From: Escherichia phage UGJNEcP3
Sequence record: OV876907
Direction: 5' to 3' (one strand)
Length of the DNA stretch: 64,000 nt
The position numbers and the translations under genes are program-made. The notes beneath the pieces were generated by a model that was given only the letters and a program-made list of their open reading frames with translations, was not told the DNA's origin and did no database searches. This document shows, piece after piece, positions 573 to 53,599 of this stretch. The stretch's first letter is position 1, and each line of letters starts with the position of its first letter.

Positions 573-1737
573 CTAAATCCATCTCTTCTAAATCGTTTTC
601 GATATCAGCAGCGCTTTGGGTATTTCCACCTAATTTAACAGCAACGTTCTTAGAGACGCGAGAGTTAATAAGGTCGTTAACCGCATCGTCAACTTCTTTA
701 ATAGAATTAATTGCACCGAGCTTATACTTATTCTCGATTGCTTCACGGAACGGAGCATGTTTAAACAGCGGTCCCCAGAACTCAACGCAATCGGTAGCTT
801 TAGCACGCCATGCTTTTTCTTCTTGAACCATTTCACCTGTGGTTTCGTCAAGGAATGCACGATTATACCAGCCAGCTTTAGGTTTCACGACAAAGCCGAT
901 ATCAGTAGCCATTTCAAGCAATCCACTGAATGGGTCGATACCACCTTCGAAGTTAACGGTGATAGGGAACGTTGATTTCTCTTTAACCGTACGAGATTTC
1001 TCGGCCTTCAGTGTGAAGTCATAACCTGTGAGCTCGGTACCATCTTTAACCTGACGTTTAGAGATAAAGAATACGGTAGAAGCAGAGTACAGAATACCAG
1101 TACCACCACCCATAATCTCTTTAGGATACATTCCACCAATTTCCATAGCCGTGTGGTTAATTGCTACACAAGGAATATCCTTGATGGTCAGATAAGGCGT
1201 TACGATACGGAACAGAGATTTCAGTGACTTAGCACGAGTCATATCACCTACAACTTTCTCGTTCAAAGCATCTTCGGTTTCTTTCTTAGAAGCAGTGTTA
1301 CCAATAGAGTCGATAAAGATAATAACCTTTTCGCCACGAGTAATTTCTTCTAACTGGTTGGTCATATCAACTTTAAGCTGTTCGACTGACTGGATTGGGG
1401 TATGAACCACACGTTCCAAATCAACACCCATCGAACGGAAATAAGATTCTGAAGCACCAAACTCAGAGTCATAGAACAAACAAATTGCGTCTGGATATTT
1501 CTTCATATATGCCGCAACCATGGTAAGTCCAAACAACGTTTTAAAGTGCTTAGATGGAGCAGCAAAGATTGTCAAACCTGATTGTAAGCCTGCATTCAAC
1601 GCACCACCCAATGCAATATTCAGCATAGGGATACGAGTAGGAACTTCGTCACGACCATTAAACAATTTAGATTTGGTCAGGTCGGCAGTCATTTTAGAAG
1701 TAGAAGCTTTAATCAAACGGGATTTTAAATCAGACAT
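565..1737 (-). CDS. uvsX: UvsX RecA-like recombinase
   Basis: 390 aa; MSDLKSRLIKASTSK N-terminus and overall sequence closely match T4 UvsX as recalled; length matches. Confidence 0.95.
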   Translation of the reverse strand: MSDLKSRLIKASTSKMTADLTKSKLFNGRDEVPTRIPMLNIALGGALNAGLQSGLTIFAAPSKHFKTLFGLTMVAAYMKKYPDAICLFYDSEFGASESYFRSMGVDLERVVHTPIQSVEQLKVDMTNQLEEITRGEKVIIFIDSIGNTASKKETEDALNEKVVGDMTRAKSLKSLFRIVTPYLTIKDIPCVAINHTAMEIGGMYPKEIMGGGTGILYSASTVFFISKRQVKDGTELTGYDFTLKAEKSRTVKEKSTFPITVNFEGGIDPFSGLLEMATDIGFVVKPKAGWYNRAFLDETTGEMVQEEKAWRAKATDCVEFWGPLFKHAPFREAIENKYKLGAINSIKEVDDAVNDLINSRVSKNVAVKLGGNTQSAADIENDLEEMDLDD

Positions 1738-1784
1738 TATATTTTTCCATAGGCATCATTATATTTTACTCACGTTTTAAGATA

Positions 1785-1825
1785 GGGTAATTATATCACT
1801 TCACATTTACAGCGTTAAAGGACCA
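1785..1825 (-). promoter_or_regulatory. Sigma70-type promoter with extended -10 (TGATATAAT) upstream of uvsX
   Basis: Reverse complement of about 1790-1798 is TGATATAAT; TTAACG-like -35 at 17-bp spacing. Confidence 0.5.
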
Positions 1826-2708
1826 CGTCCTCATAACTTGGCATTTCGTGCTCAGAATGGATATGGGCACCGAAATAAATGAATTCAGCTAGACCAGGAT
1901 GGAATACTAAACCAGGATTCTCGTGATAAATGATATGAGGTCTTGATTTCAGAATCTGATAATATTCAACCTTACTAGGTTTGAATTTAATAATCTCTAC
2001 ATCAGGACGATAGTCTTCACGTTTAAATGAATCATTCGGGTCGGTGATATAAAGGCGAGAACCTTCAGCTGCAGCTTGGTCTACAACTCTTTCGAATTGA
2101 TAACATTTATCAGAGATACGGAATGGATGGAAAATACCATCAATTTTAATAGGCGCTAGACCTTCAGAGTAACGCTCAATTACTGCGGGATTAATTACCT
2201 TTTGGTCTACAAAAATCTTATCAGAGGACGCACCTCGTGACACCAGGACGTCTTTCTGGCATTGATTCAGGACTGTAGTATAAATCGAACGTTCAACTGA
2301 GGACACGTCGGTATCAATAAACTCGTCGATATAATAACGAGGAACTTCAGGGTCCATTGTAATGTTAAAGTTGAATTGTACAGTCTGAGTGCCATCATAA
2401 CCTGTGATATCGGTTACTAATCCTGAGCAGTCATAGTATTCGATTAACGAATCAACAACGAACTCGTTTTCAGACCAAAAATGTTTACGAGTTTCATAAG
2501 CATTTTCTTTATACCAAAGCGGTACAAAATTCAGTTCAGGAAATAATTCAATGCATTCTTTGATATCGCTCGAATTTCTAGGATAAGCCAGATAATCACC
2601 TGGGCAAGCACGGTTTAAATGGAGTTGAAAATTACCGTCCTTAAGGACGGCATATTCACCTGTTTCGTAACTACGCATACTGAAAATAGGAACGATAAAC
2701 AGACTCAT
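1815..2708 (-). CDS. Hypothetical protein at the beta-glucosyltransferase position; candidate DNA base-modifying transferase
   Basis: 297 aa; no resemblance to T4 beta-gt as recalled; ATG overlaps the stop of the upstream TS-family gene (ATGA); last gene of the five-gene coupled operon. Confidence 0.6.
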   Translation of the reverse strand: MSLFIVPIFSMRSYETGEYAVLKDGNFQLHLNRACPGDYLAYPRNSSDIKECIELFPELNFVPLWYKENAYETRKHFWSENEFVVDSLIEYYDCSGLVTDITGYDGTQTVQFNFNITMDPEVPRYYIDEFIDTDVSSVERSIYTTVLNQCQKDVLVSRGASSDKIFVDQKVINPAVIERYSEGLAPIKIDGIFHPFRISDKCYQFERVVDQAAAEGSRLYITDPNDSFKREDYRPDVEIIKFKPSKVEYYQILKSRPHIIYHENPGLVFHPGLAEFIYFGAHIHSEHEMPSYEDVVL

Positions 2709-3403
2709 TTCAGGAATCCTCGAACATAGTCAAAATCACGTTCAAATACATGTGCACTAACCATAGTATGGGAATACGTACCCAGACCAACACCACACTG
2801 TTCAGCAATAAAGGCCATCAGTTTACCCTGCAGATAGAAATCCAGCTGCATAACGATAGCACAGTTCTGTGAACGCATATGAGTGTGTGCATACAGACGT
2901 CCATCACGAATATAATATGTCACCGAATCGGTACAAGGATATTCTAAGGATTCGTCAGAATCAAGGAGGGCTTGGTCTTGTTCTTGGAGAATCTGGAACA
3001 CAACTCTTCTTGAGTTAGGCTTCTCTTTAAGCTCTTTAAGTAAGGCTGGGAGTTGGGCCACAATTCGAGGTCCATAGAAAGTGTTGAAGTTTGCAGGCAA
3101 TACGTCACTTTTCGGCTTATCAATGAACTTAGCAACATTAGGGTATTCCTTAAATGCTTCGGCGGCGTCAGTACCACCGGAAATCATAAACTTCCAGAAA
3201 GATTCGGCATAATCATAGTTGATACGATTAATACGAGGGTCGGTGAATTTATAGGTGCTTGCATCCAGAACTTCAACTGAAGCCGAACCAATTTCATAAC
3301 AACGACCGATACGAGAATCAACTGCAAACTGTGGAGCTTCCAGGATTTCTTCGTTCATTTGTTTAAATGCATTTTCAAAACTAACAGCGGTAATGTGTTT
3401 CAT
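2705..3403 (-). CDS. 42: Thymidylate-synthase-family pyrimidine hydroxymethylase, dCMP hydroxymethylase-like (divergent)
   Basis: 232 aa; PNSRR, YPCT (candidate catalytic Cys) and MRSQNCAIVMQLD motifs align with the TS/dCMP-hydroxymethylase pattern; Asp at the position that is Asp in T4 dCH and Asn in TS; syntenic with T4 gene 42 but far more divergent than neighbouring core genes. Confidence 0.75.
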   Translation of the reverse strand: MKHITAVSFENAFKQMNEEILEAPQFAVDSRIGRCYEIGSASVEVLDASTYKFTDPRINRINYDYAESFWKFMISGGTDAAEAFKEYPNVAKFIDKPKSDVLPANFNTFYGPRIVAQLPALLKELKEKPNSRRVVFQILQEQDQALLDSDESLEYPCTDSVTYYIRDGRLYAHTHMRSQNCAIVMQLDFYLQGKLMAFIAEQCGVGLGTYSHTMVSAHVFERDFDYVRGFLK

Positions 3404-3936
3404 TTATTCACCTCATAATTAATGTATTCATTAAGACGTTTTAATTCTACCATATCGACGTTAAGCAAGTTATTATGGCCGTCGTGATTTAAGATTTTAA
3501 ACACGTTTTCAAAACATGTTTCATATTGGCGGATAGTTAGGTTGAACTCATCTTTAGTCAGTTTAATGAGGTCATCTTCAAAGTCTTTATCCAACGGATT
3601 ACGGGTTAAAATAACCTCAATGATATTGAATTCTTTTTTGAAATCAATCCAATCTGCTAGTTCTACATAAGGGTCCATTTCACCACGAAGGAATCCCGAG
3701 TAAACAATATTACTAGGATAACCACGGTCTAGGATGTAAACGAAATTAGGGTCTAAAAACTTATACAACGTCTCGACTAAAGCCTTGTCATTATCAGTTC
3801 CTAACGAAATACATTTACCATTAATCTTTTTAGGAAAATCAATAAGACGATATTTCTTATCAGATAAAAGGGTTTCGATTAAAGTAGACTTCCCGGAATT
3901 ATCCGGGCCGTCTATAACAATGATTTTTGGATTCAT
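3400..3936 (-). CDS. P-loop kinase, polynucleotide-kinase-like
   Basis: 178 aa; Walker A IVIDGPDNSGKST at the N-terminus, similar in layout to the T4 Pnk kinase domain; ATGA-coupled to neighbours on both sides. Confidence 0.7.
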   Translation of the reverse strand: MNPKIIVIDGPDNSGKSTLIETLLSDKKYRLIDFPKKINGKCISLGTDNDKALVETLYKFLDPNFVYILDRGYPSNIVYSGFLRGEMDPYVELADWIDFKKEFNIIEVILTRNPLDKDFEDDLIKLTKDEFNLTIRQYETCFENVFKILNHDGHNNLLNVDMVELKRLNEYINYEVNK

Positions 3937-4292
3937 GGATGATAGGCCTTATAACTATCAAGAGTTCCTTCGCGAACCATTTCTTTAAAGTGGTCAGGAC
4001 GAATTGCTCGGTCATCGATGATAAAAGTATAACTCGGCTTGTGTGTAAGCAAATTGTGATATTTCAATCCAATTTTTTCAAGGTTCTTAACCAATGCAGG
4101 AACTACTTCAACCAAGATTCGGCCTGGGCCGCATGAAGTCATACCACGGGCAGTGAACAATGTAATCTCATGACCTTCATCGTACAGCTTATTAATCATG
4201 GACACCATTTCGGTGTCCGGTTTAAAGTTTTCATAATCACGGTCATCTTGCCAGTGAGTAATGGTATTATCGATGTCAAAGCACAAATGCAT
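3933..4292 (-). CDS. HAD-superfamily phosphatase (Pnk-phosphatase/GmhB-like)
   Basis: Motifs FDIDNT (DxDxT), LFTAR and IIDDR; start placed at the second ATG (4290-4292), which has a GGAAGAAA Shine-Dalgarno, rather than the ORF-track start at 4307. Confidence 0.7.
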   Translation of the reverse strand: MHLCFDIDNTITHWQDDRDYENFKPDTEMVSMINKLYDEGHEITLFTARGMTSCGPGRILVEVVPALVKNLEKIGLKYHNLLTHKPSYTFIIDDRAIRPDHFKEMVREGTLDSYKAYHP

Positions 4293-5965
4293 TAAATTTT
4301 CTTCCATTGTTTGTGGAGTTCAGTAGAACCTGTAGGTTTATATTTTACACCAGTTTCCTGGTCAAGCAAAACCCACTTATCAGGGCATCGAGTGATAATT
4401 TGGGCCGTAATAGGGTCACGAACTTCATCGACAAATTCACCTGTAATAAGCTTACGCTTACGAGGATGCCGCTTCAGCAGCACACTCAGTTGATATAGAC
4501 CGTTGTAATAAGCGCCCAGAGCTTTCAGAGGGTTATTTTTAAAGTAACCTGCCAACGCCATCCAGATAACAGCAATCCAGAGCTTGTGCTTAAATGTACA
4601 CATTGGAATATCATCTAAAGGCATAACCTTTTCAATATCAACGAATACTCGAGTTCCATTACGAGTTAAGCCACCCCATAGAGGGTCAGAGTTAAATTTG
4701 TCATAACCATCGATAGAATAAAGCACCTTAGCTTCATCATAAATCGCAGGGCCTTTAGAACTATTACCAAAATAACCGCGTGGGTCGATGATTTTAATAT
4801 CACCTTCGTCCGACAGCATAATATTACTGTAGTGCGGGTCGCCGTGAATAAGTTGGTACGGTTCTTTATGTTCAGACAGAATTTCTAGTGCATGACGAAG
4901 AAGTTTTTCTGGGTCGCCTACCTTAAAGTCATTGACATGGGTAATGCCCTGTGGAGCAAAGCCTTCAATCAATCCAGCAATAGAAGCATTACGAATAAGG
5001 ACCTTGTCCAATACTTCTTTCTTAACATCGGAATACCATTGCTCATCGGATGGATTATCGATAGTTCCACCAAATGAACGTAATGCACTAATGACCTTAT
5101 AAACCATGAGGACTTTAGTTTCTTTAGACATAAACCGATAGGCATCTGCCATGGTGCGACCAAAGATACGTTCCATTTTAATGAATTCACCTGGAGCAAA
5201 GTCTACAATGCTCGGAACAAATTCAGAATCAATAGAATTATACCAATTGATTTCTTTAGATTGGATTTCTTTACCTAATTCGTTGGTAGGTACTTTAATA
5301 GCCAGATTCTCAGTGAACTCTAATTTATTAAATTCACGGTTAATTTCAGAATCTTCATGGGCCTTAGCCAGTTTCAATTTGTCACCGACATCAACTACAA
5401 AGTCCAGCTTACGTTCGGTCAAATGGACCATCGAATCTAGGTTATCAGCAAGGTCTTCGCCATAATTAGAACGGTTGAAGCCTGTCCAATTAGCCACCTG
5501 ATACAAACCAACCACACCACCGCCAGTACCAATTTCACGCAAGTACGGTTCTTCAAATGTAAAACGACAGTCAGTCCCGTAGGTATAGCAATAGTCGTTA
5601 TCCCACTCAACTTTATGACCCTCAGGAATGATGTCACACCAGTTAAACAAGACGTTATGGCCAATGATATCTTCAGCAATGCAATCGATAGCATGAGCTG
5701 AACCATTAGCCACATCTACGTTACGAATAGTGAATTTAGGCTTATCACTATTAATCATGTTAATGGATTTAATATAGCCTTTAACGAGGTCGTTAAATTT
5801 GCTGTGAATAACCAGAATAATTTCATCTGATTGGTTACTATACAAATCATACAAATGTTTTAATACAGTATGTTGTTTGTAGTTAACCAATACCTTCGGG
5901 ATTTCGTTAGTAATTGGATACAACCGTGAGCCAAGACCCGCGCCTAAAATAACAACCTTTTTCAT
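4292..5965 (-). CDS. Bifunctional sugar-phosphate nucleotidyltransferase / APH-type kinase fusion
   Basis: N-terminus KKVVILGAGLGSRLYPIT is the RmlA/GlmU-type G-x-G-x-R-L nucleotidyltransferase signature; C-terminal half has HGDPHYSNIM and IIDPRG (aminoglycoside/choline/sugar-1-kinase fold). Start trimmed to MKKVVIL (ATG 5963-5965, SD GAGGAA) because a TATAAT -10 overlaps the ORF-track start. Confidence 0.85.
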   Translation of the reverse strand: MKKVVILGAGLGSRLYPITNEIPKVLVNYKQHTVLKHLYDLYSNQSDEIILVIHSKFNDLVKGYIKSINMINSDKPKFTIRNVDVANGSAHAIDCIAEDIIGHNVLFNWCDIIPEGHKVEWDNDYCYTYGTDCRFTFEEPYLREIGTGGGVVGLYQVANWTGFNRSNYGEDLADNLDSMVHLTERKLDFVVDVGDKLKLAKAHEDSEINREFNKLEFTENLAIKVPTNELGKEIQSKEINWYNSIDSEFVPSIVDFAPGEFIKMERIFGRTMADAYRFMSKETKVLMVYKVISALRSFGGTIDNPSDEQWYSDVKKEVLDKVLIRNASIAGLIEGFAPQGITHVNDFKVGDPEKLLRHALEILSEHKEPYQLIHGDPHYSNIMLSDEGDIKIIDPRGYFGNSSKGPAIYDEAKVLYSIDGYDKFNSDPLWGGLTRNGTRVFVDIEKVMPLDDIPMCTFKHKLWIAVIWMALAGYFKNNPLKALGAYYNGLYQLSVLLKRHPRKRKLITGEFVDEVRDPITAQIITRCPDKWVLLDQETGVKYKPTGSTELHKQWKKI

Positions 5966-5984
5966 TATCTGTTCCTCAAGTGAA

Positions 5985-6020
5985 TGTAGGTACATTATAC
6001 ACTATTTTTAATAAATTGGT
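5985..6020 (-). promoter_or_regulatory. Promoter (-10 TATAAT) heading the five-gene modification operon
   Basis: Reverse complement of 5994-5999 is TATAAT, about 30 nt upstream of the nucleotidyltransferase-kinase ATG. Confidence 0.45.
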
Positions 6021-6025
6021 ATTGC

Positions 6026-6526
6026 TTAAATCTTATCTTTACCGATTTCAATACACTGTTCTATTGCCGCCGGTACTTTGGTCTTGAGCTTATCGATTTG
6101 TTTCTTATAATCACGAGCTTTACCGAAGCTCTCGGTTTCGAGCATTTCGTAATAACGAGCCTCGTGGATGGAAATCTGTAGATTGATATGGTTTACGCAC
6201 ATCGCATACAGTTTCTGCTTTTTGTACAAATCATCTTGGCGCTTCATTTCTGCCTGGTGTTTGGCTAGTACCGCTTCACGCTTAGACTCTTGTTCACGTT
6301 GGAATTCGATTTCCCTTTGAGCATATTTTGCACAGTTATTACCACATTGATTATTAGCTCGGGTATACACAAGTCCAGAACCGGCACGGAATTTCATTTC
6401 GCCATCGAATTGTTTCTGTTCAGCTGCGATACGAGCTTTACCAACTTCATCGGCTGAAACTGCATCACCATATTGGACCGCACAACCTGATAGGAGCATA
6501 CTCATTGCGATAATTAACTTTTTCAT
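6026..6526 (-). CDS. Putative lipoprotein
   Basis: 166 aa; N-terminus MKKLIIAMSMLLSGC is a signal peptide with lipobox; SD GAGGAT upstream. Confidence 0.65.
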   Translation of the reverse strand: MKKLIIAMSMLLSGCAVQYGDAVSADEVGKARIAAEQKQFDGEMKFRAGSGLVYTRANNQCGNNCAKYAQREIEFQREQESKREAVLAKHQAEMKRQDDLYKKQKLYAMCVNHINLQISIHEARYYEMLETESFGKARDYKKQIDKLKTKVPAAIEQCIEIGKDKI

Positions 6527-13124: not shown

Positions 13125-13316
13125 TTAATCAAAGTACTCGTAGACAAACCATGCCGGATTTCTATTTGACATGATTTTATCATATTCTGACTTAAAAGCA
13201 TTTCGGAGATATTCTTCAGTAACAAGATGCTCATCTCCAGAGAAGTTGTTAACTAAAACGTATCTCTTTATTTCTGGAAAGGCCAACAAATGCTGGCCTG
13301 TTATAAAATCACTCAT
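13125..13316 (-). CDS. Hypothetical protein (45.2-like position)
   Basis: 63 aa ORF on the transcribed strand. Confidence 0.45.
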   Translation of the reverse strand: MSDFITGQHLLAFPEIKRYVLVNNFSGDEHLVTEEYLRNAFKSEYDKIMSNRNPAWFVYEYFD

Positions 13317-13999
13317 TATGAAGCATCCTTTAATTTACAATTATCAAAGTGCCATCGTTTCATAATGTTGTTAGAGCCAATTTTATCACAATATGGGCAC
13401 TTTACAGTTGGTCTGCTTTTAGCTTTTGCAGATTGTTTGCTTTTCATAGCCTGTTTTGCTTCGTCAGACCTAGAATTAAGGGCTATAGAAATTTTATCCC
13501 TTGTTTCTTGGCTATGAGTTTTTCCGAACATAGGGTTGTTCTCAGGCAAATATGTACCATTTCTTATATTACTCTGACGAATTTTTTCTATATGTTCTTT
13601 AGATTTATTTCTTAGCTCTAGGCATTTAGATTTCTTTCTAGTTTTAAAAAGGTTTTCATAAAATGAATACGGTCTATTTTTAGCAGCTATACTCTGTTTA
13701 AGTCTGGTTTCCTCTTTTATAAAAGGTGCGGCATTACCTCCTAAAGAAATATTATATGTAAGAGGGTTCTTTATAAATTCCTCATTGACTATAATTCTTT
13801 CCATTTGGATAGCCTCTTCTCTGGTATCAAAATTATAAAGTATTTCCTTTCTATGATTTTCCAAACCATATTTTTTAATAGAAGCTTTAATATATAAACC
13901 AGAGCCCATATACGAATCTTTAATATTTTCAGTACTATGTATCCCTACATAGTACTTATTATTAACTAAATTTATTATTTTGTAAACAAGATGTCTCAT
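13316..13999 (-). CDS. GIY-YIG homing endonuclease (Seg-like)
   Basis: 227 aa; N-terminal YKIINLVNNKYYVGIHS...GSG GIY-YIG signature, basic C-terminal DNA-binding region with CPYC; AT-rich gene inserted between 45.2 and 46. Confidence 0.85.
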   Translation of the reverse strand: MRHLVYKIINLVNNKYYVGIHSTENIKDSYMGSGLYIKASIKKYGLENHRKEILYNFDTREEAIQMERIIVNEEFIKNPLTYNISLGGNAAPFIKEETRLKQSIAAKNRPYSFYENLFKTRKKSKCLELRNKSKEHIEKIRQSNIRNGTYLPENNPMFGKTHSQETRDKISIALNSRSDEAKQAMKSKQSAKAKSRPTVKCPYCDKIGSNNIMKRWHFDNCKLKDAS

Positions 14000-52837: not shown

Positions 52838-52845
<8 letters not shown>

Positions 52846-53599
52846 TTTTATTTCCTAATAATTTATCAATAGTAGTGTATAGTTCAGAAAGAGTGCCGTT
52901 ATTTTCAACAACAACGTCACCAGGTAAAATTGGTAGACCCGCTTCAGTGATGTGCGAGTCTTGTACTTGACCGGTTTCAGCGCGAACTACATGAATAATC
53001 GTAGCACCCATCGCTCTGAGTGAATCAATTTCGTGTGTTTGACGAACATCAGGTACGACATAGTATTTCGCATCAGAGTATATTTTATCAAAATAGTCTA
53101 AAGCGAACAACTTAACCCAATACATCTTATCAAATTGGTTAACAATAATATCAGTCCCAAGGGTCTGCATGAGACGACGTACTGACCAATTGTTATTTTT
53201 ATTTATTACTTCAAATAGCTGGTCTTTTGTTTCTTCAGACAGATATTGGACCGGGGTAAGACCGTAATGATATGCGGTAAGAACATCAATTCCTGGAATA
53301 GGAAGGATATTATTCAGTTTAACAATAGCATGTTCAAAAATATCAACCACATCATACGGTTTTAAAGGAAGGGTTTCTTCACGGTCGTAACCGATACCTT
53401 CAAAACAATTAAAATCAAGTTTAGGCATATAGCTACGGTCGAATACAGGGTCATCAGATATGTATTCATAAGCTTCAGCCAGATACTTTTTAATAGGACC
53501 AGCGAGTTGGAATTTTACGGAATCCATATTCTCAATTACATAGTTAGCAACGGTATCCTTACCGCTACGTTTGATTCCTACAATTGATATTAGTTTCAT
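52838..53599 (-). CDS. 1: Deoxynucleoside monophosphate kinase gp1
   Basis: 253 aa; P-loop GIKRSGKDT and WSVRRLMQTLGTD...MYWVKLFALDY...MGATIIHVVR match T4 gp1. Confidence 0.93.

What the first reader, a model, noticed from the sequence alone, without database searches (positions are those of the whole stretch)
2705..3403. Gene 42 homolog is far more divergent than surrounding core genes
uvsX, 43, 45, regA, denV and e match T4 closely, but this thymidylate-synthase-family enzyme shares only scattered motifs with T4 dCMP hydroxymethylase (PNSRR, catalytic Cys in YPCT, Asp in the specificity position of RSQNCAIVMQLD). Retention of the Asp argues for a cytosine substrate, but the divergence suggests altered substrate or one-carbon chemistry co-evolving with the new downstream enzymes.
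Basis: partly seen in the sequence, partly recalled or inferred. Interest (0 to 1): 0.6.

Follow-up and report, generated by a model that had tools for sequence, protein, structure and literature searches.

The report
Phage dCMP 5-hydroxylase, not hydroxymethylase

Summary
The window is from a Dhakavirus and is 100% identical to Escherichia phage UGJNEcP4. The ORF at 2705-3403 (minus strand, 232 aa) belongs to the thymidylate-synthase superfamily. It shares only 25% identity over 159 aa with T4 gp42, while eight neighbouring genes are 42-77% identical to T4.

The gene is not a fast-evolving gp42. It is a conserved ortholog of the AfhB / 5-hydroxy-dCMP synthase family. It is 79% identical over its full length to RB69 gp48, an enzyme shown by experiment to make 5hodCMP. 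It also closely matches the crystal structures of phage HY126 dCMP hydroxylase AfhB (9iqc/9iqu; E about 1e-125; model TM-score 0.93).

It carries the published signature residues: Cys157, Glu154 (L143E), Asp188 (N177D) and the diagnostic Asn180 (D169N).

The gene sits in an operon with homologs of the first DNA arabinosyltransferase, the AfhF phosphatase, the AfhE kinase/uridylyltransferase and a TMK-like kinase.

The change is from folate one-carbon transfer to flavin/O2 hydroxylation. This was published in 2025-2026, and Dhakaviruses were named among the carriers. Interest is low. The final glycan on Dhakavirus DNA has not been measured.

The parts
2705..3403 (-). AfhB-type dCMP 5-hydroxylase (5hodCMP synthase), 232 aa.
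   Evidence: It is 79% identical over 231 aa to RB69 gp48. phmmer gives E 1.5e-125 to PDB 9iqu/9iqc, which are titled 'phage HY126 dCMP hydroxylase-AfhB' and 'Monooxygenase dependent on riboflavin with dCMP and FAD'. The AF2 model has pLDDT 86 and TM-score 0.93 to 9iqc.
2933..2944 (-). Codons for Glu154-Tyr-Pro-Cys157. These are the catalytic Cys (E. coli ThyA C146) and the acidic residue at the L143 position.
   Evidence: Read from the sequence. Seen in alignments A1 and A3. Invariant in the 30-sequence family alignment A2.
2840..2866 (-). Codons for Asn180 (ThyA D169N, diagnostic of 5hodCMP synthases) through Asp188 (ThyA N177D, cytosine specificity).
   Evidence: The D169N criterion comes from PMC13326640.
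1815..2708 (-). Homolog of RB69 gp46:47, the first DNA arabinosyltransferase (297 aa). Translationally coupled to AfhB by an ATGA overlap.
   Evidence: tblastn gives 64% and 69% identity to RB69 gp46 and gp47. It matches phrog_3891 at E 1e-158, function unknown. The role is assigned in PMC13326640. There is no Pfam or PDB sequence hit.
3400..3936 (-). TMK-like P-loop nucleotide kinase (178 aa), homolog of RB69 gp45. Substrate unknown.
   Evidence: It is 37% identical to RB69 gp45. It matches phrog_761 'thymidylate kinase' at E 1e-38 and has weak Pfam P-loop hits.
3933..4307 (-). HAD-family phosphatase, AfhF-like (RB69 gp51 homolog). Proposed to convert arabinose-1,5-bisphosphate to arabinose-1-phosphate.
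   Evidence: It is 61% identical to RB69 gp51. It hits PDB 9iqw at E 3.7e-53 and TIGR01689, capsule biosynthesis phosphatase, at E 5.5e-14. The role is from PMC13326640.
4292..5965 (-). Bifunctional sugar-1-phosphate nucleotidyltransferase (N-terminal) plus APH-like sugar kinase (C-terminal), AfhE-like (RB69 gp52:53 homolog). The longest ORF extends to 5995. The start annotated in the record, which also fits the homology, is at 5965.
   Evidence: Pfam NTP_transferase at E 2.5e-8 and APH at E 1.3e-5. It is 41-44% identical to RB69 gp52 and gp53. It matches phrog_4098 at E 4e-269 from residue 11.
52838..53599 (-). Gene 1-type dNMP kinase. Expected to convert 5hodCMP to 5hodCDP, as was shown for RB69 gp159.
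   Evidence: Annotated as 'deoxynucleoside monophosphate kinase' in the identical record. It matches phrog_139 at E 1.9e-58. RB69 gp159 activity is reported in PMC13326640. Its role here is inferred.

Best explanation
The ORF encodes an AfhB-type dCMP 5-hydroxylase (5-hydroxy-dCMP synthase). It has a thymidylate-synthase fold but has replaced methylene-tetrahydrofolate with a flavin.

Proposed mechanism:
- Cys157 adds to C6 of dCMP, as in all TS-family enzymes. The base is recognised as cytosine by Asp188.
- The activated C5 then attacks an oxygen delivered by a reduced flavin plus O2.
- Elimination of the Cys yields 5-hydroxy-dCMP.

Proposed pathway:
- The gene 1 dNMP kinase and a host NDP kinase raise 5hodCMP to the triphosphate.
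- gp43 incorporates it in place of dCTP.
- The adjacent glycosyltransferase then attaches arabinose to the 5-hydroxyl on DNA. It uses UDP-arabinose made by the AfhE-like and AfhF-like enzymes encoded just upstream.

Shown here: family membership, signature residues, structural match and gene context.

Shown in the literature for orthologs: the 5hodCMP product, O2 as the oxygen source and a bound flavin.

Inferred: the step-by-step chemistry, the same activity in this exact protein, and arabinose as the sugar in Dhakavirus.
For: It is 79% identical over the full length to RB69 gp48. RB69 gp48 was shown to produce 5hodC in vivo, with 18O incorporated from 18O2 and a bound FMN-like flavin (PMC13326640).

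phmmer gives E 1.5e-125 to PDB 9iqu and 9iqc. Foldseek gives TM-score 0.93 to 9iqc, 'Monooxygenase dependent on riboflavin with dCMP and FAD', and 0.88 (normalised by query length) to 9iqu, 'phage HY126 dCMP hydroxylase-AfhB'.

The signature residues E154, C157, N180 and D188 are present. They are invariant across 30 family members down to 50% identity. In alignment A3 they are shared with RB69, with Thanatos-2 (a close relative of the assayed phage Thanatos), with RL38J1, and with the enzyme of Serratia phage 92A1, whose DNA is reported to carry arabinosylated 5hodC. T4 gp42, E. coli ThyA and the phage's own ThyA keep Asp169.

The cluster is syntenic with RB69 gp45-53. No homolog of T4 alpha-gt or beta-gt exists anywhere in the genome, and a separate genuine thyA is present.

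PMC13326640 names Dhakaviruses among the genera carrying the conserved cluster.
Against: No enzyme assay or nucleoside analysis of any Dhakavirus was found in the searchable literature.

The primary biochemical and structural paper (He et al., Nat Chem Biol 2026) could not be read. The flavin mechanism is therefore taken second-hand and from PDB titles.

This cluster lacks the phage arabinose-5-phosphate isomerase, the U32-like gene and the second arabinosyltransferase of RB69. Its AfhE-like enzyme is only 41-44% identical to RB69's. The downstream glycan is therefore less certain than the hydroxylation step.
Confidence: 0.9

Rival explanations
1. It is a canonical but highly diverged dCMP hydroxymethylase (gp42 ortholog). 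It would make 5-hydroxymethyl-dCMP from methylene-THF, as many GenBank records annotate it.
For: It occupies the same syntenic slot as T4 gene 42, between uvsX/beta-gt and imm/43. It has the catalytic Cys, Asp at the N177 position and an acidic residue at the L143 position, as gp42 does. Several records label orthologs 'dCMP hydroxymethylase'.
Against: It is only 25% identical to gp42, against 79% to an enzyme shown to make 5hodCMP and not 5hmdCMP. Asp169, which is conserved in TS and gp42, is Asn here. In the alignment the Trp80 equivalent is Ala (moderate alignment confidence). PDB relatives are flavin monooxygenases. There are no alpha-gt or beta-gt homologs in the genome.
Confidence: 0.04
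2. It is a thymidylate synthase (dUMP to dTMP), as annotated in the source record and in RefSeq.
For: The Pfam, PHROG and NCBIfam best hits are all named thymidylate synthase. The records annotate it 'thymidylate synthase'.
Against: All NCBIfam TS equivalog models score far below their curated cut-offs (best 63 bits against a cut-off of 174.55). The uracil-specifying Asn177 is Asp, and Leu143 is Glu. The genome has a separate thyA that is 46% identical to E. coli ThyA, next to frd.
Confidence: 0.01
3. The hydroxylase assignment is right, but the Dhakavirus pathway ends in something other than the arabinosyl-5-hydroxycytosine of RB69. It could use a different sugar, or a different route to the sugar nucleotide.
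For: The genome has no homolog of RB69 gp55 (arabinose-5-phosphate isomerase), gp50, gp49 or gp3.

The AfhE-like enzyme falls in a subgroup shared with Klebsiella Marfa-type phages (80%) and one Proteus phage (71%). It is only 42-45% identical to those of every other listed phage group (Mosigvirus, Serratia, Acinetobacter, Yersinia and Enterobacter phages), which include the genera whose DNA has been analysed. AfhB is 69-87% identical to the same phages.

Marfa also lacks the isomerase, whereas Serratia CHI14 has it. PMC13326640 notes that 5hodC also carries hexoses in RL38J1.
Against: The glycosyltransferase and the phosphatase are 61-69% identical to their RB69 counterparts, which suggests the same donor sugar. 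The host makes arabinose-5-phosphate itself through KdsD and GutQ (established knowledge), so a phage isomerase is dispensable. The domain architecture of the AfhE-like enzyme is unchanged.
Confidence: 0.1

Closest known systems
AfhB / 5hodCMP synthase (RB69 gp48, DLP3 gp80, HY126 AfhB; PDB 9iqc, 9iqu, 9ir2)
   Same: Full-length homology at about 79% identity. Same length. Same signature residues (C146, L143E, D169N, N177D in E. coli ThyA numbering). Predicted fold TM-score 0.93. Same position in an arabinosylation gene cluster between uvsX and gene 43.
   Different: Gene order within the cluster differs: the TMK-like kinase lies between the hydroxylase and the phosphatase instead of next to uvsX. 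The cluster lacks the isomerase, the U32-like gene and the second arabinosyltransferase. This particular protein has not been assayed.
T4 gp42 dCMP hydroxymethylase
   Same: TS fold, Cys nucleophile, dCMP substrate (Asp at the N177 position), acidic residue at the L143 position, same genomic slot, and the same biological purpose of replacing C in phage DNA with a glycosylatable base.
   Different: Only 25% identity over 159 aa. Asp169 is replaced by Asn. The cofactor is flavin/O2 rather than methylene-THF. The product is 5-hydroxy-dCMP rather than 5-hydroxymethyl-dCMP, so the sugar is ether-linked directly to the ring.
MilA CMP 5-hydroxymethylase (PDB 5b6d, 5jnh)
   Same: Closest non-AfhB relative by sequence (E 2.5e-14 to 3.6e-14) and by fold (TM-score 0.80-0.82). 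It is also cytosine-specific.
   Different: About 25% identity. MilA acts on the ribonucleotide CMP using folate, in antibiotic biosynthesis.
Thymidylate synthase ThyA
   Same: Superfamily and fold. The phosphate-binding Arg residues, Tyr94, Arg166 and Ser167 are conserved.
   Different: Asn177 to Asp, Leu143 to Glu and Asp169 to Asn. The N-terminal half does not match the Pfam profile. The C-terminal folate-closing tail is missing. Scores fall below all curated TS cut-offs.

Membership tests
AfhB / 5hodCMP synthase | Asn at the position of E. coli ThyA Asp169 (D169N), proposed as diagnostic in PMC13326640 | tested here: met
   Asn180 lies in MRSQN. It aligns to D169 of a verified ThyA sequence. 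It is invariant in 30 homologs.
AfhB / 5hodCMP synthase | Catalytic Cys (C146), Asp at N177 (dCMP specificity) and an acidic residue at L143 | tested here: met
   Cys157, Asp188 and Glu154 are present.
AfhB / 5hodCMP synthase | Close full-length homology to experimentally characterised members | tested here: met
   79% identity to RB69 gp48. E 1.5e-125 to HY126 AfhB chains. TM-score 0.93 to 9iqc.
AfhB / 5hodCMP synthase | Located in a cluster with a DNA glycosyltransferase and NDP-sugar synthesis genes | tested here: met
   Homologs of RB69 gp46:47, gp45, gp51 and gp52:53 are adjacent, with ATGA-coupled junctions.
AfhB / 5hodCMP synthase | Flavin- and O2-dependent formation of 5-hydroxy-dCMP from dCMP | not testable with these tools
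   Known for the orthologs (PMC13326640; PDB titles). It needs an enzyme assay for this protein.
T4-type dCMP hydroxymethylase (gp42) | Conserved Asp169-equivalent, and sequence identity to T4 gp42 of the same order as the neighbouring core genes show | tested here: not met
   Asn replaces Asp. Identity to gp42 is 25%, against 42-77% for neighbouring genes. phmmer E is 4.7e-6 to 1b49, against 1e-125 to AfhB.
T4-type dCMP hydroxymethylase (gp42) | Partner hmC glucosyltransferases (alpha-gt or beta-gt) in the genome | tested here: not met
   tblastn with T4 alpha-gt and beta-gt against the whole UGJNEcP4 genome gives no hit at E <= 0.01.
Thymidylate synthase (ThyA) | Score above the curated family cut-offs, with Asn177 and Leu143 present | tested here: not met
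   The best NCBIfam TS model scores 63.1 bits against a cut-off of 174.55. The residues are Asp188 and Glu154 instead. It does pass the broad Pfam superfamily cut-off (52.6 against 24.3 bits).

The most novel reading that the evidence does not exclude
Dhakavirus-type clusters are shared with Klebsiella Marfa-like phages and some Proteus phages. They have no phage arabinose-5-phosphate isomerase, no second arabinosyltransferase and a distinct AfhE subtype. They may therefore put a glycan on 5-hydroxycytosine that differs from the arabinose chains found in RB69, DLP3 or HY126, or build the sugar nucleotide by a different route. No chemical analysis of Dhakavirus DNA was found.
Probability: 0.1. 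Interest if true: 0.45.

Novelty: already known. Interest (0 to 1): 0.2.

Why it matters
The family matters for three reasons. A folate-dependent one-carbon transferase fold has been converted into a flavin-dependent hydroxylase. It makes a base, 5-hydroxycytosine, on which phages build sugar coats that block restriction enzymes and CRISPR. It also shows that hundreds of database entries labelled 'thymidylate synthase' or 'dCMP hydroxymethylase' are wrong.

All of this was established in 2025-2026 by Lee et al. (NAR), Mahler et al. (Cell Host Microbe) and He et al. (Nat Chem Biol), and Dhakaviruses were listed as carriers. For this window the practical value is correct annotation. It also gives a prediction: Dhakavirus DNA should carry a single arabinose on 5-hydroxycytosine. 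That prediction could be checked quickly.

Tried and rejected
- I tried to read He et al. 2026 (doi 10.1038/s41589-026-02150-z) for the AfhB mechanism and the Afh gene nomenclature. The paper is not held.
- I looked for supplementary files of PMC13326640 to see whether a Dhakavirus enzyme was among the nine D169N homologs assayed. None are held.
- I searched papers for Dhakavirus DNA chemistry. Only genomic statements turned up.
- NCBIfam (June 2026) has no specific AfhB model. It returns only sub-threshold TS models.
- A PDB sequence search for the glycosyltransferase found nothing. For the AfhE-like enzyme it found only weak nucleotidyltransferase hits.
- I considered accelerated in-situ divergence of gp42 and rejected it. 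The protein is strongly conserved within its own clade and is no closer to gp42 than to generic thymidylate synthases.
- I considered that it is the phage's thymidylate synthase and rejected it, because a separate thyA exists.
- Residue-level inference about lost folate contacts (for example Trp80 to Ala) rests on a MAFFT alignment at about 20% identity. It is given only as a weak observation.

Full report
**Identity of the window.** Bases 1700-6100 are 100% identical to Escherichia phage UGJNEcP4 (OV877765.1, genus Dhakavirus). They are 94-96% identical to Bp7, QL01, WG01, IME08 and other Dhakaviruses. The gene order is T4-like: 40, uvsX, [five-gene insert containing the finding], a lipoprotein-like ORF, imm, 43, regA, 62, 44, 45.

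**Check of the observation.**
- Pfam assigns it to Thymidylat_synt (E 4.8e-14), but only residues 114-229 match the profile.
- Against T4 gp42 it shows 25% identity over 159 aa.
- Neighbouring genes against T4: uvsX 67%, gp43 61%, regA 77%, gp62 52%, gp44 67%, gp45 58%, gp40 49%, imm 42%.
- Alignment with an E. coli ThyA sequence that I verified against the PDB confirms the catalytic Cys (Cys157 = C146) and the Asp at the specificity position (Asp188 = N177).

**What the gene is.**
- A search of solved structures gave two near-identical hits, 9iqu and 9iqc/9ir2, at E about 1e-125 over the full length. MilA followed at about 3e-14 and T4 gp42 at 5e-6.
- An AlphaFold2 model built on a 30-sequence alignment (pLDDT 86) matches 9iqc with TM-score 0.93. 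That entry is titled 'Monooxygenase dependent on riboflavin with dCMP and FAD'. The model also matches 9iqu, 'phage HY126 dCMP hydroxylase-AfhB with substrate dCMP'. Both were released in July 2025.
- The protein is 79% identical over 231 residues to RB69 gp48.
- Lee et al. (NAR 2026, PMC13326640) showed that RB69 gp48 and DLP3 gp80 convert dCMP to 5-hydroxy-dCMP. The oxygen comes from O2, as shown by 18O2 labelling. The proteins purify with an FMN-like flavin.
- They also showed that the arabinose in RB69 DNA is ether-linked to this hydroxyl, not to a hydroxymethyl group as was thought in 2018.
- That paper cites He et al. (Nat Chem Biol 2026) for the HY126 crystal structure with flavin and for in vitro reconstitution. 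It explicitly lists Dhakaviruses among the genera carrying the syntenic cluster.

**Signature residues.**
- The paper proposes Asp169-to-Asn (E. coli numbering) as diagnostic of 5hodCMP synthases, alongside N177D and L143D/E.
- In the window protein these are Asn180, Asp188 and Glu154, with Cys157 as the nucleophile.
- All four are invariant in my alignment of 30 homologs down to 50% identity. That alignment includes the enzymes of Serratia phage 92A1, Shewanella phage Thanatos-2 and Acinetobacter phage Acj61.
- In a second alignment the same residues occur in the remote Rhizobium phage RL38J1 enzyme, which has been assayed. E. coli ThyA, the phage's own ThyA and T4 gp42 all keep Asp169.

**Not a fast-evolving gp42.**
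- Within its own clade the protein is well conserved: 85-87% identical to Klebsiella Marfa-type phages, 79% to Mosigviruses, 69-71% to Acinetobacter phages and about 33% to Rhizobium phages.
- Identity to RB69 (79%) is in line with the core genes: uvsX 90%, gp43 83%, gp44 63%, gp62 51%.
- By sequence it is no closer to T4 gp42 than to ordinary thymidylate synthases.
- The large distance to T4 therefore reflects a different branch of the TS superfamily in the same genomic slot. It does not reflect relaxed or accelerated evolution.

**Context.**
- The gene overlaps both neighbours by ATGA, so the three genes are probably translationally coupled.
- Downstream lies a 297-aa protein that is 64-69% identical to RB69 gp46:47, the first DNA arabinosyltransferase.
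- Upstream lies a TMK-like kinase, 37% identical to RB69 gp45.
- Next is a HAD phosphatase, 61% identical to gp51 and hitting PDB 9iqw at E 3.7e-53. This is AfhF-like.
- Last is a two-domain nucleotidyltransferase/kinase, 41-44% identical to gp52:53. This is AfhE-like.
- A gene 1-type dNMP kinase lies at 52838-53599.
- Elsewhere in the same genome are a dCTPase, a dCMP deaminase, alc, denB and a genuine thyA with frd.
- No homolog of T4 alpha-gt or beta-gt exists in the genome.

**Mechanism.**
- Cys157 attacks C6 of dCMP, which Asp188 holds as cytosine.
- The nucleophilic C5 is oxygenated by a flavin-derived oxygen species formed from reduced flavin and O2.
- Cys elimination then gives 5hodCMP.
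- Kinases raise it to the triphosphate, gp43 incorporates it, and the adjacent transferase arabinosylates it on DNA using UDP-arabinose.
- Family membership, signature residues, fold and context are shown here.
- Product, oxygen source and flavin are shown in the literature for orthologs.
- The individual chemical steps, and their transfer to this protein, are inferred.

**Differences from RB69.**
- The whole UGJNEcP4 genome lacks homologs of RB69 gp55 (arabinose-5-phosphate isomerase), gp50 (U32-like), gp49 and gp3 (second arabinosyltransferase). The rIIA-topoisomerase gap, where gp3 sits in RB69, holds only small ORFs.
- With one transferase, a single arabinose per cytosine is the simplest prediction.
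- Arabinose-5-phosphate would come from host KdsD or GutQ (established knowledge).
- The AfhE-like enzyme forms a subgroup with Klebsiella Marfa-type phages (80%) and one Proteus phage (71%). It is only 42-45% identical to those of every other listed phage group, which include the genera whose DNA has been analysed.
- Marfa also lacks the isomerase, whereas Serratia CHI14 has it.
- This leaves a small chance that the sugar or its route differs. I found no chemical analysis of Dhakavirus DNA.

**Verdict.** But the change is a cofactor and reaction switch, not modified one-carbon chemistry. The enzyme family, its diagnostic residue, its structure and its presence in Dhakaviruses are already published. 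The novelty category is 'already known' and interest is low. The remaining value is correcting database annotation ('thymidylate synthase', 'dCMP hydroxymethylase', 'phosphoheptose isomerase') and determining the still unmeasured glycan of this genus.

Noticed in passing
Whole genome of the source phage (OV877765.1; loci L001, L004, L005, L007, L008); cluster at window 1815-5965: The Dhakavirus modification cluster is a reduced version of the RB69 cluster. tblastn (E <= 0.01) finds no homolog of RB69 gp55 (arabinose-5-phosphate isomerase), gp50 (U32 peptidase-like), gp49 or gp3 (second arabinosyltransferase) anywhere in the genome. This predicts mono-arabinosylation and dependence on host arabinose-5-phosphate.
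   Followed up: partly
window 4292-5965 (-): The AfhE-like kinase/nucleotidyltransferase is 80% identical to Klebsiella Marfa/F48-type phages and 71% to Proteus SJ_PmiM. It is only 42-45% identical to Mosigvirus, Serratia, Yersinia and Acinetobacter versions. The adjacent hydroxylase is 69-87% identical to those same phages. The divergent subtype co-occurs with absence of a phage isomerase in the two cluster types examined (Dhakavirus and Marfa lack it; Serratia CHI14 has it).
   Followed up: partly
window 2705-3403, 3933-4307 and orthologs in public records: Database names are systematically misleading. The hydroxylase is labelled 'thymidylate synthase', 'dCMP hydroxymethylase' or 'hypothetical'. 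The HAD phosphatase is labelled 'phosphoheptose isomerase' (PHROG 1238 and RefSeq). NCBIfam release 20 has no model for the hydroxylase family.
   Followed up: yes
window 2705-2708 and 3400-3403: The stop and start codons of kinase/hydroxylase and of hydroxylase/glycosyltransferase overlap as ATGA. This suggests translational coupling of the three genes.
   Followed up: no
window 6026-6526 (-): A 166-aa ORF with a lipoprotein-type signal (MKKLIIAMSMLLSGC) lies between the AfhE-like gene and imm. It matches phrog_1754 (function unknown) and has no Pfam or NCBIfam family. It has no counterpart in the RB69 or T4 stretch examined.
   Followed up: no
window 3400-3936 (-): The TMK-like kinase has moved relative to RB69, where it lies next to uvsX. 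At 37% identity it is the most divergent member of the cluster. Its substrate is unknown in every phage, since the gene 1 dNMP kinase already phosphorylates 5hodCMP in RB69.
   Followed up: no
window 13316-13999 (-): A homing endonuclease gene is annotated between the gp45/rpbA region and gene 46 in the identical record. It is one of several mobile endonuclease insertions in this genome.
   Followed up: no
alignment A3, region of E. coli ThyA residues 79-83: In all 5-hydroxylase-type sequences the folate-contacting Trp80 of ThyA, which T4 gp42 keeps, aligns to Ala. The N-terminal 113 residues do not match the Pfam TS profile. This fits loss of folate binding, but the alignment in this region is of low confidence.
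   Followed up: no
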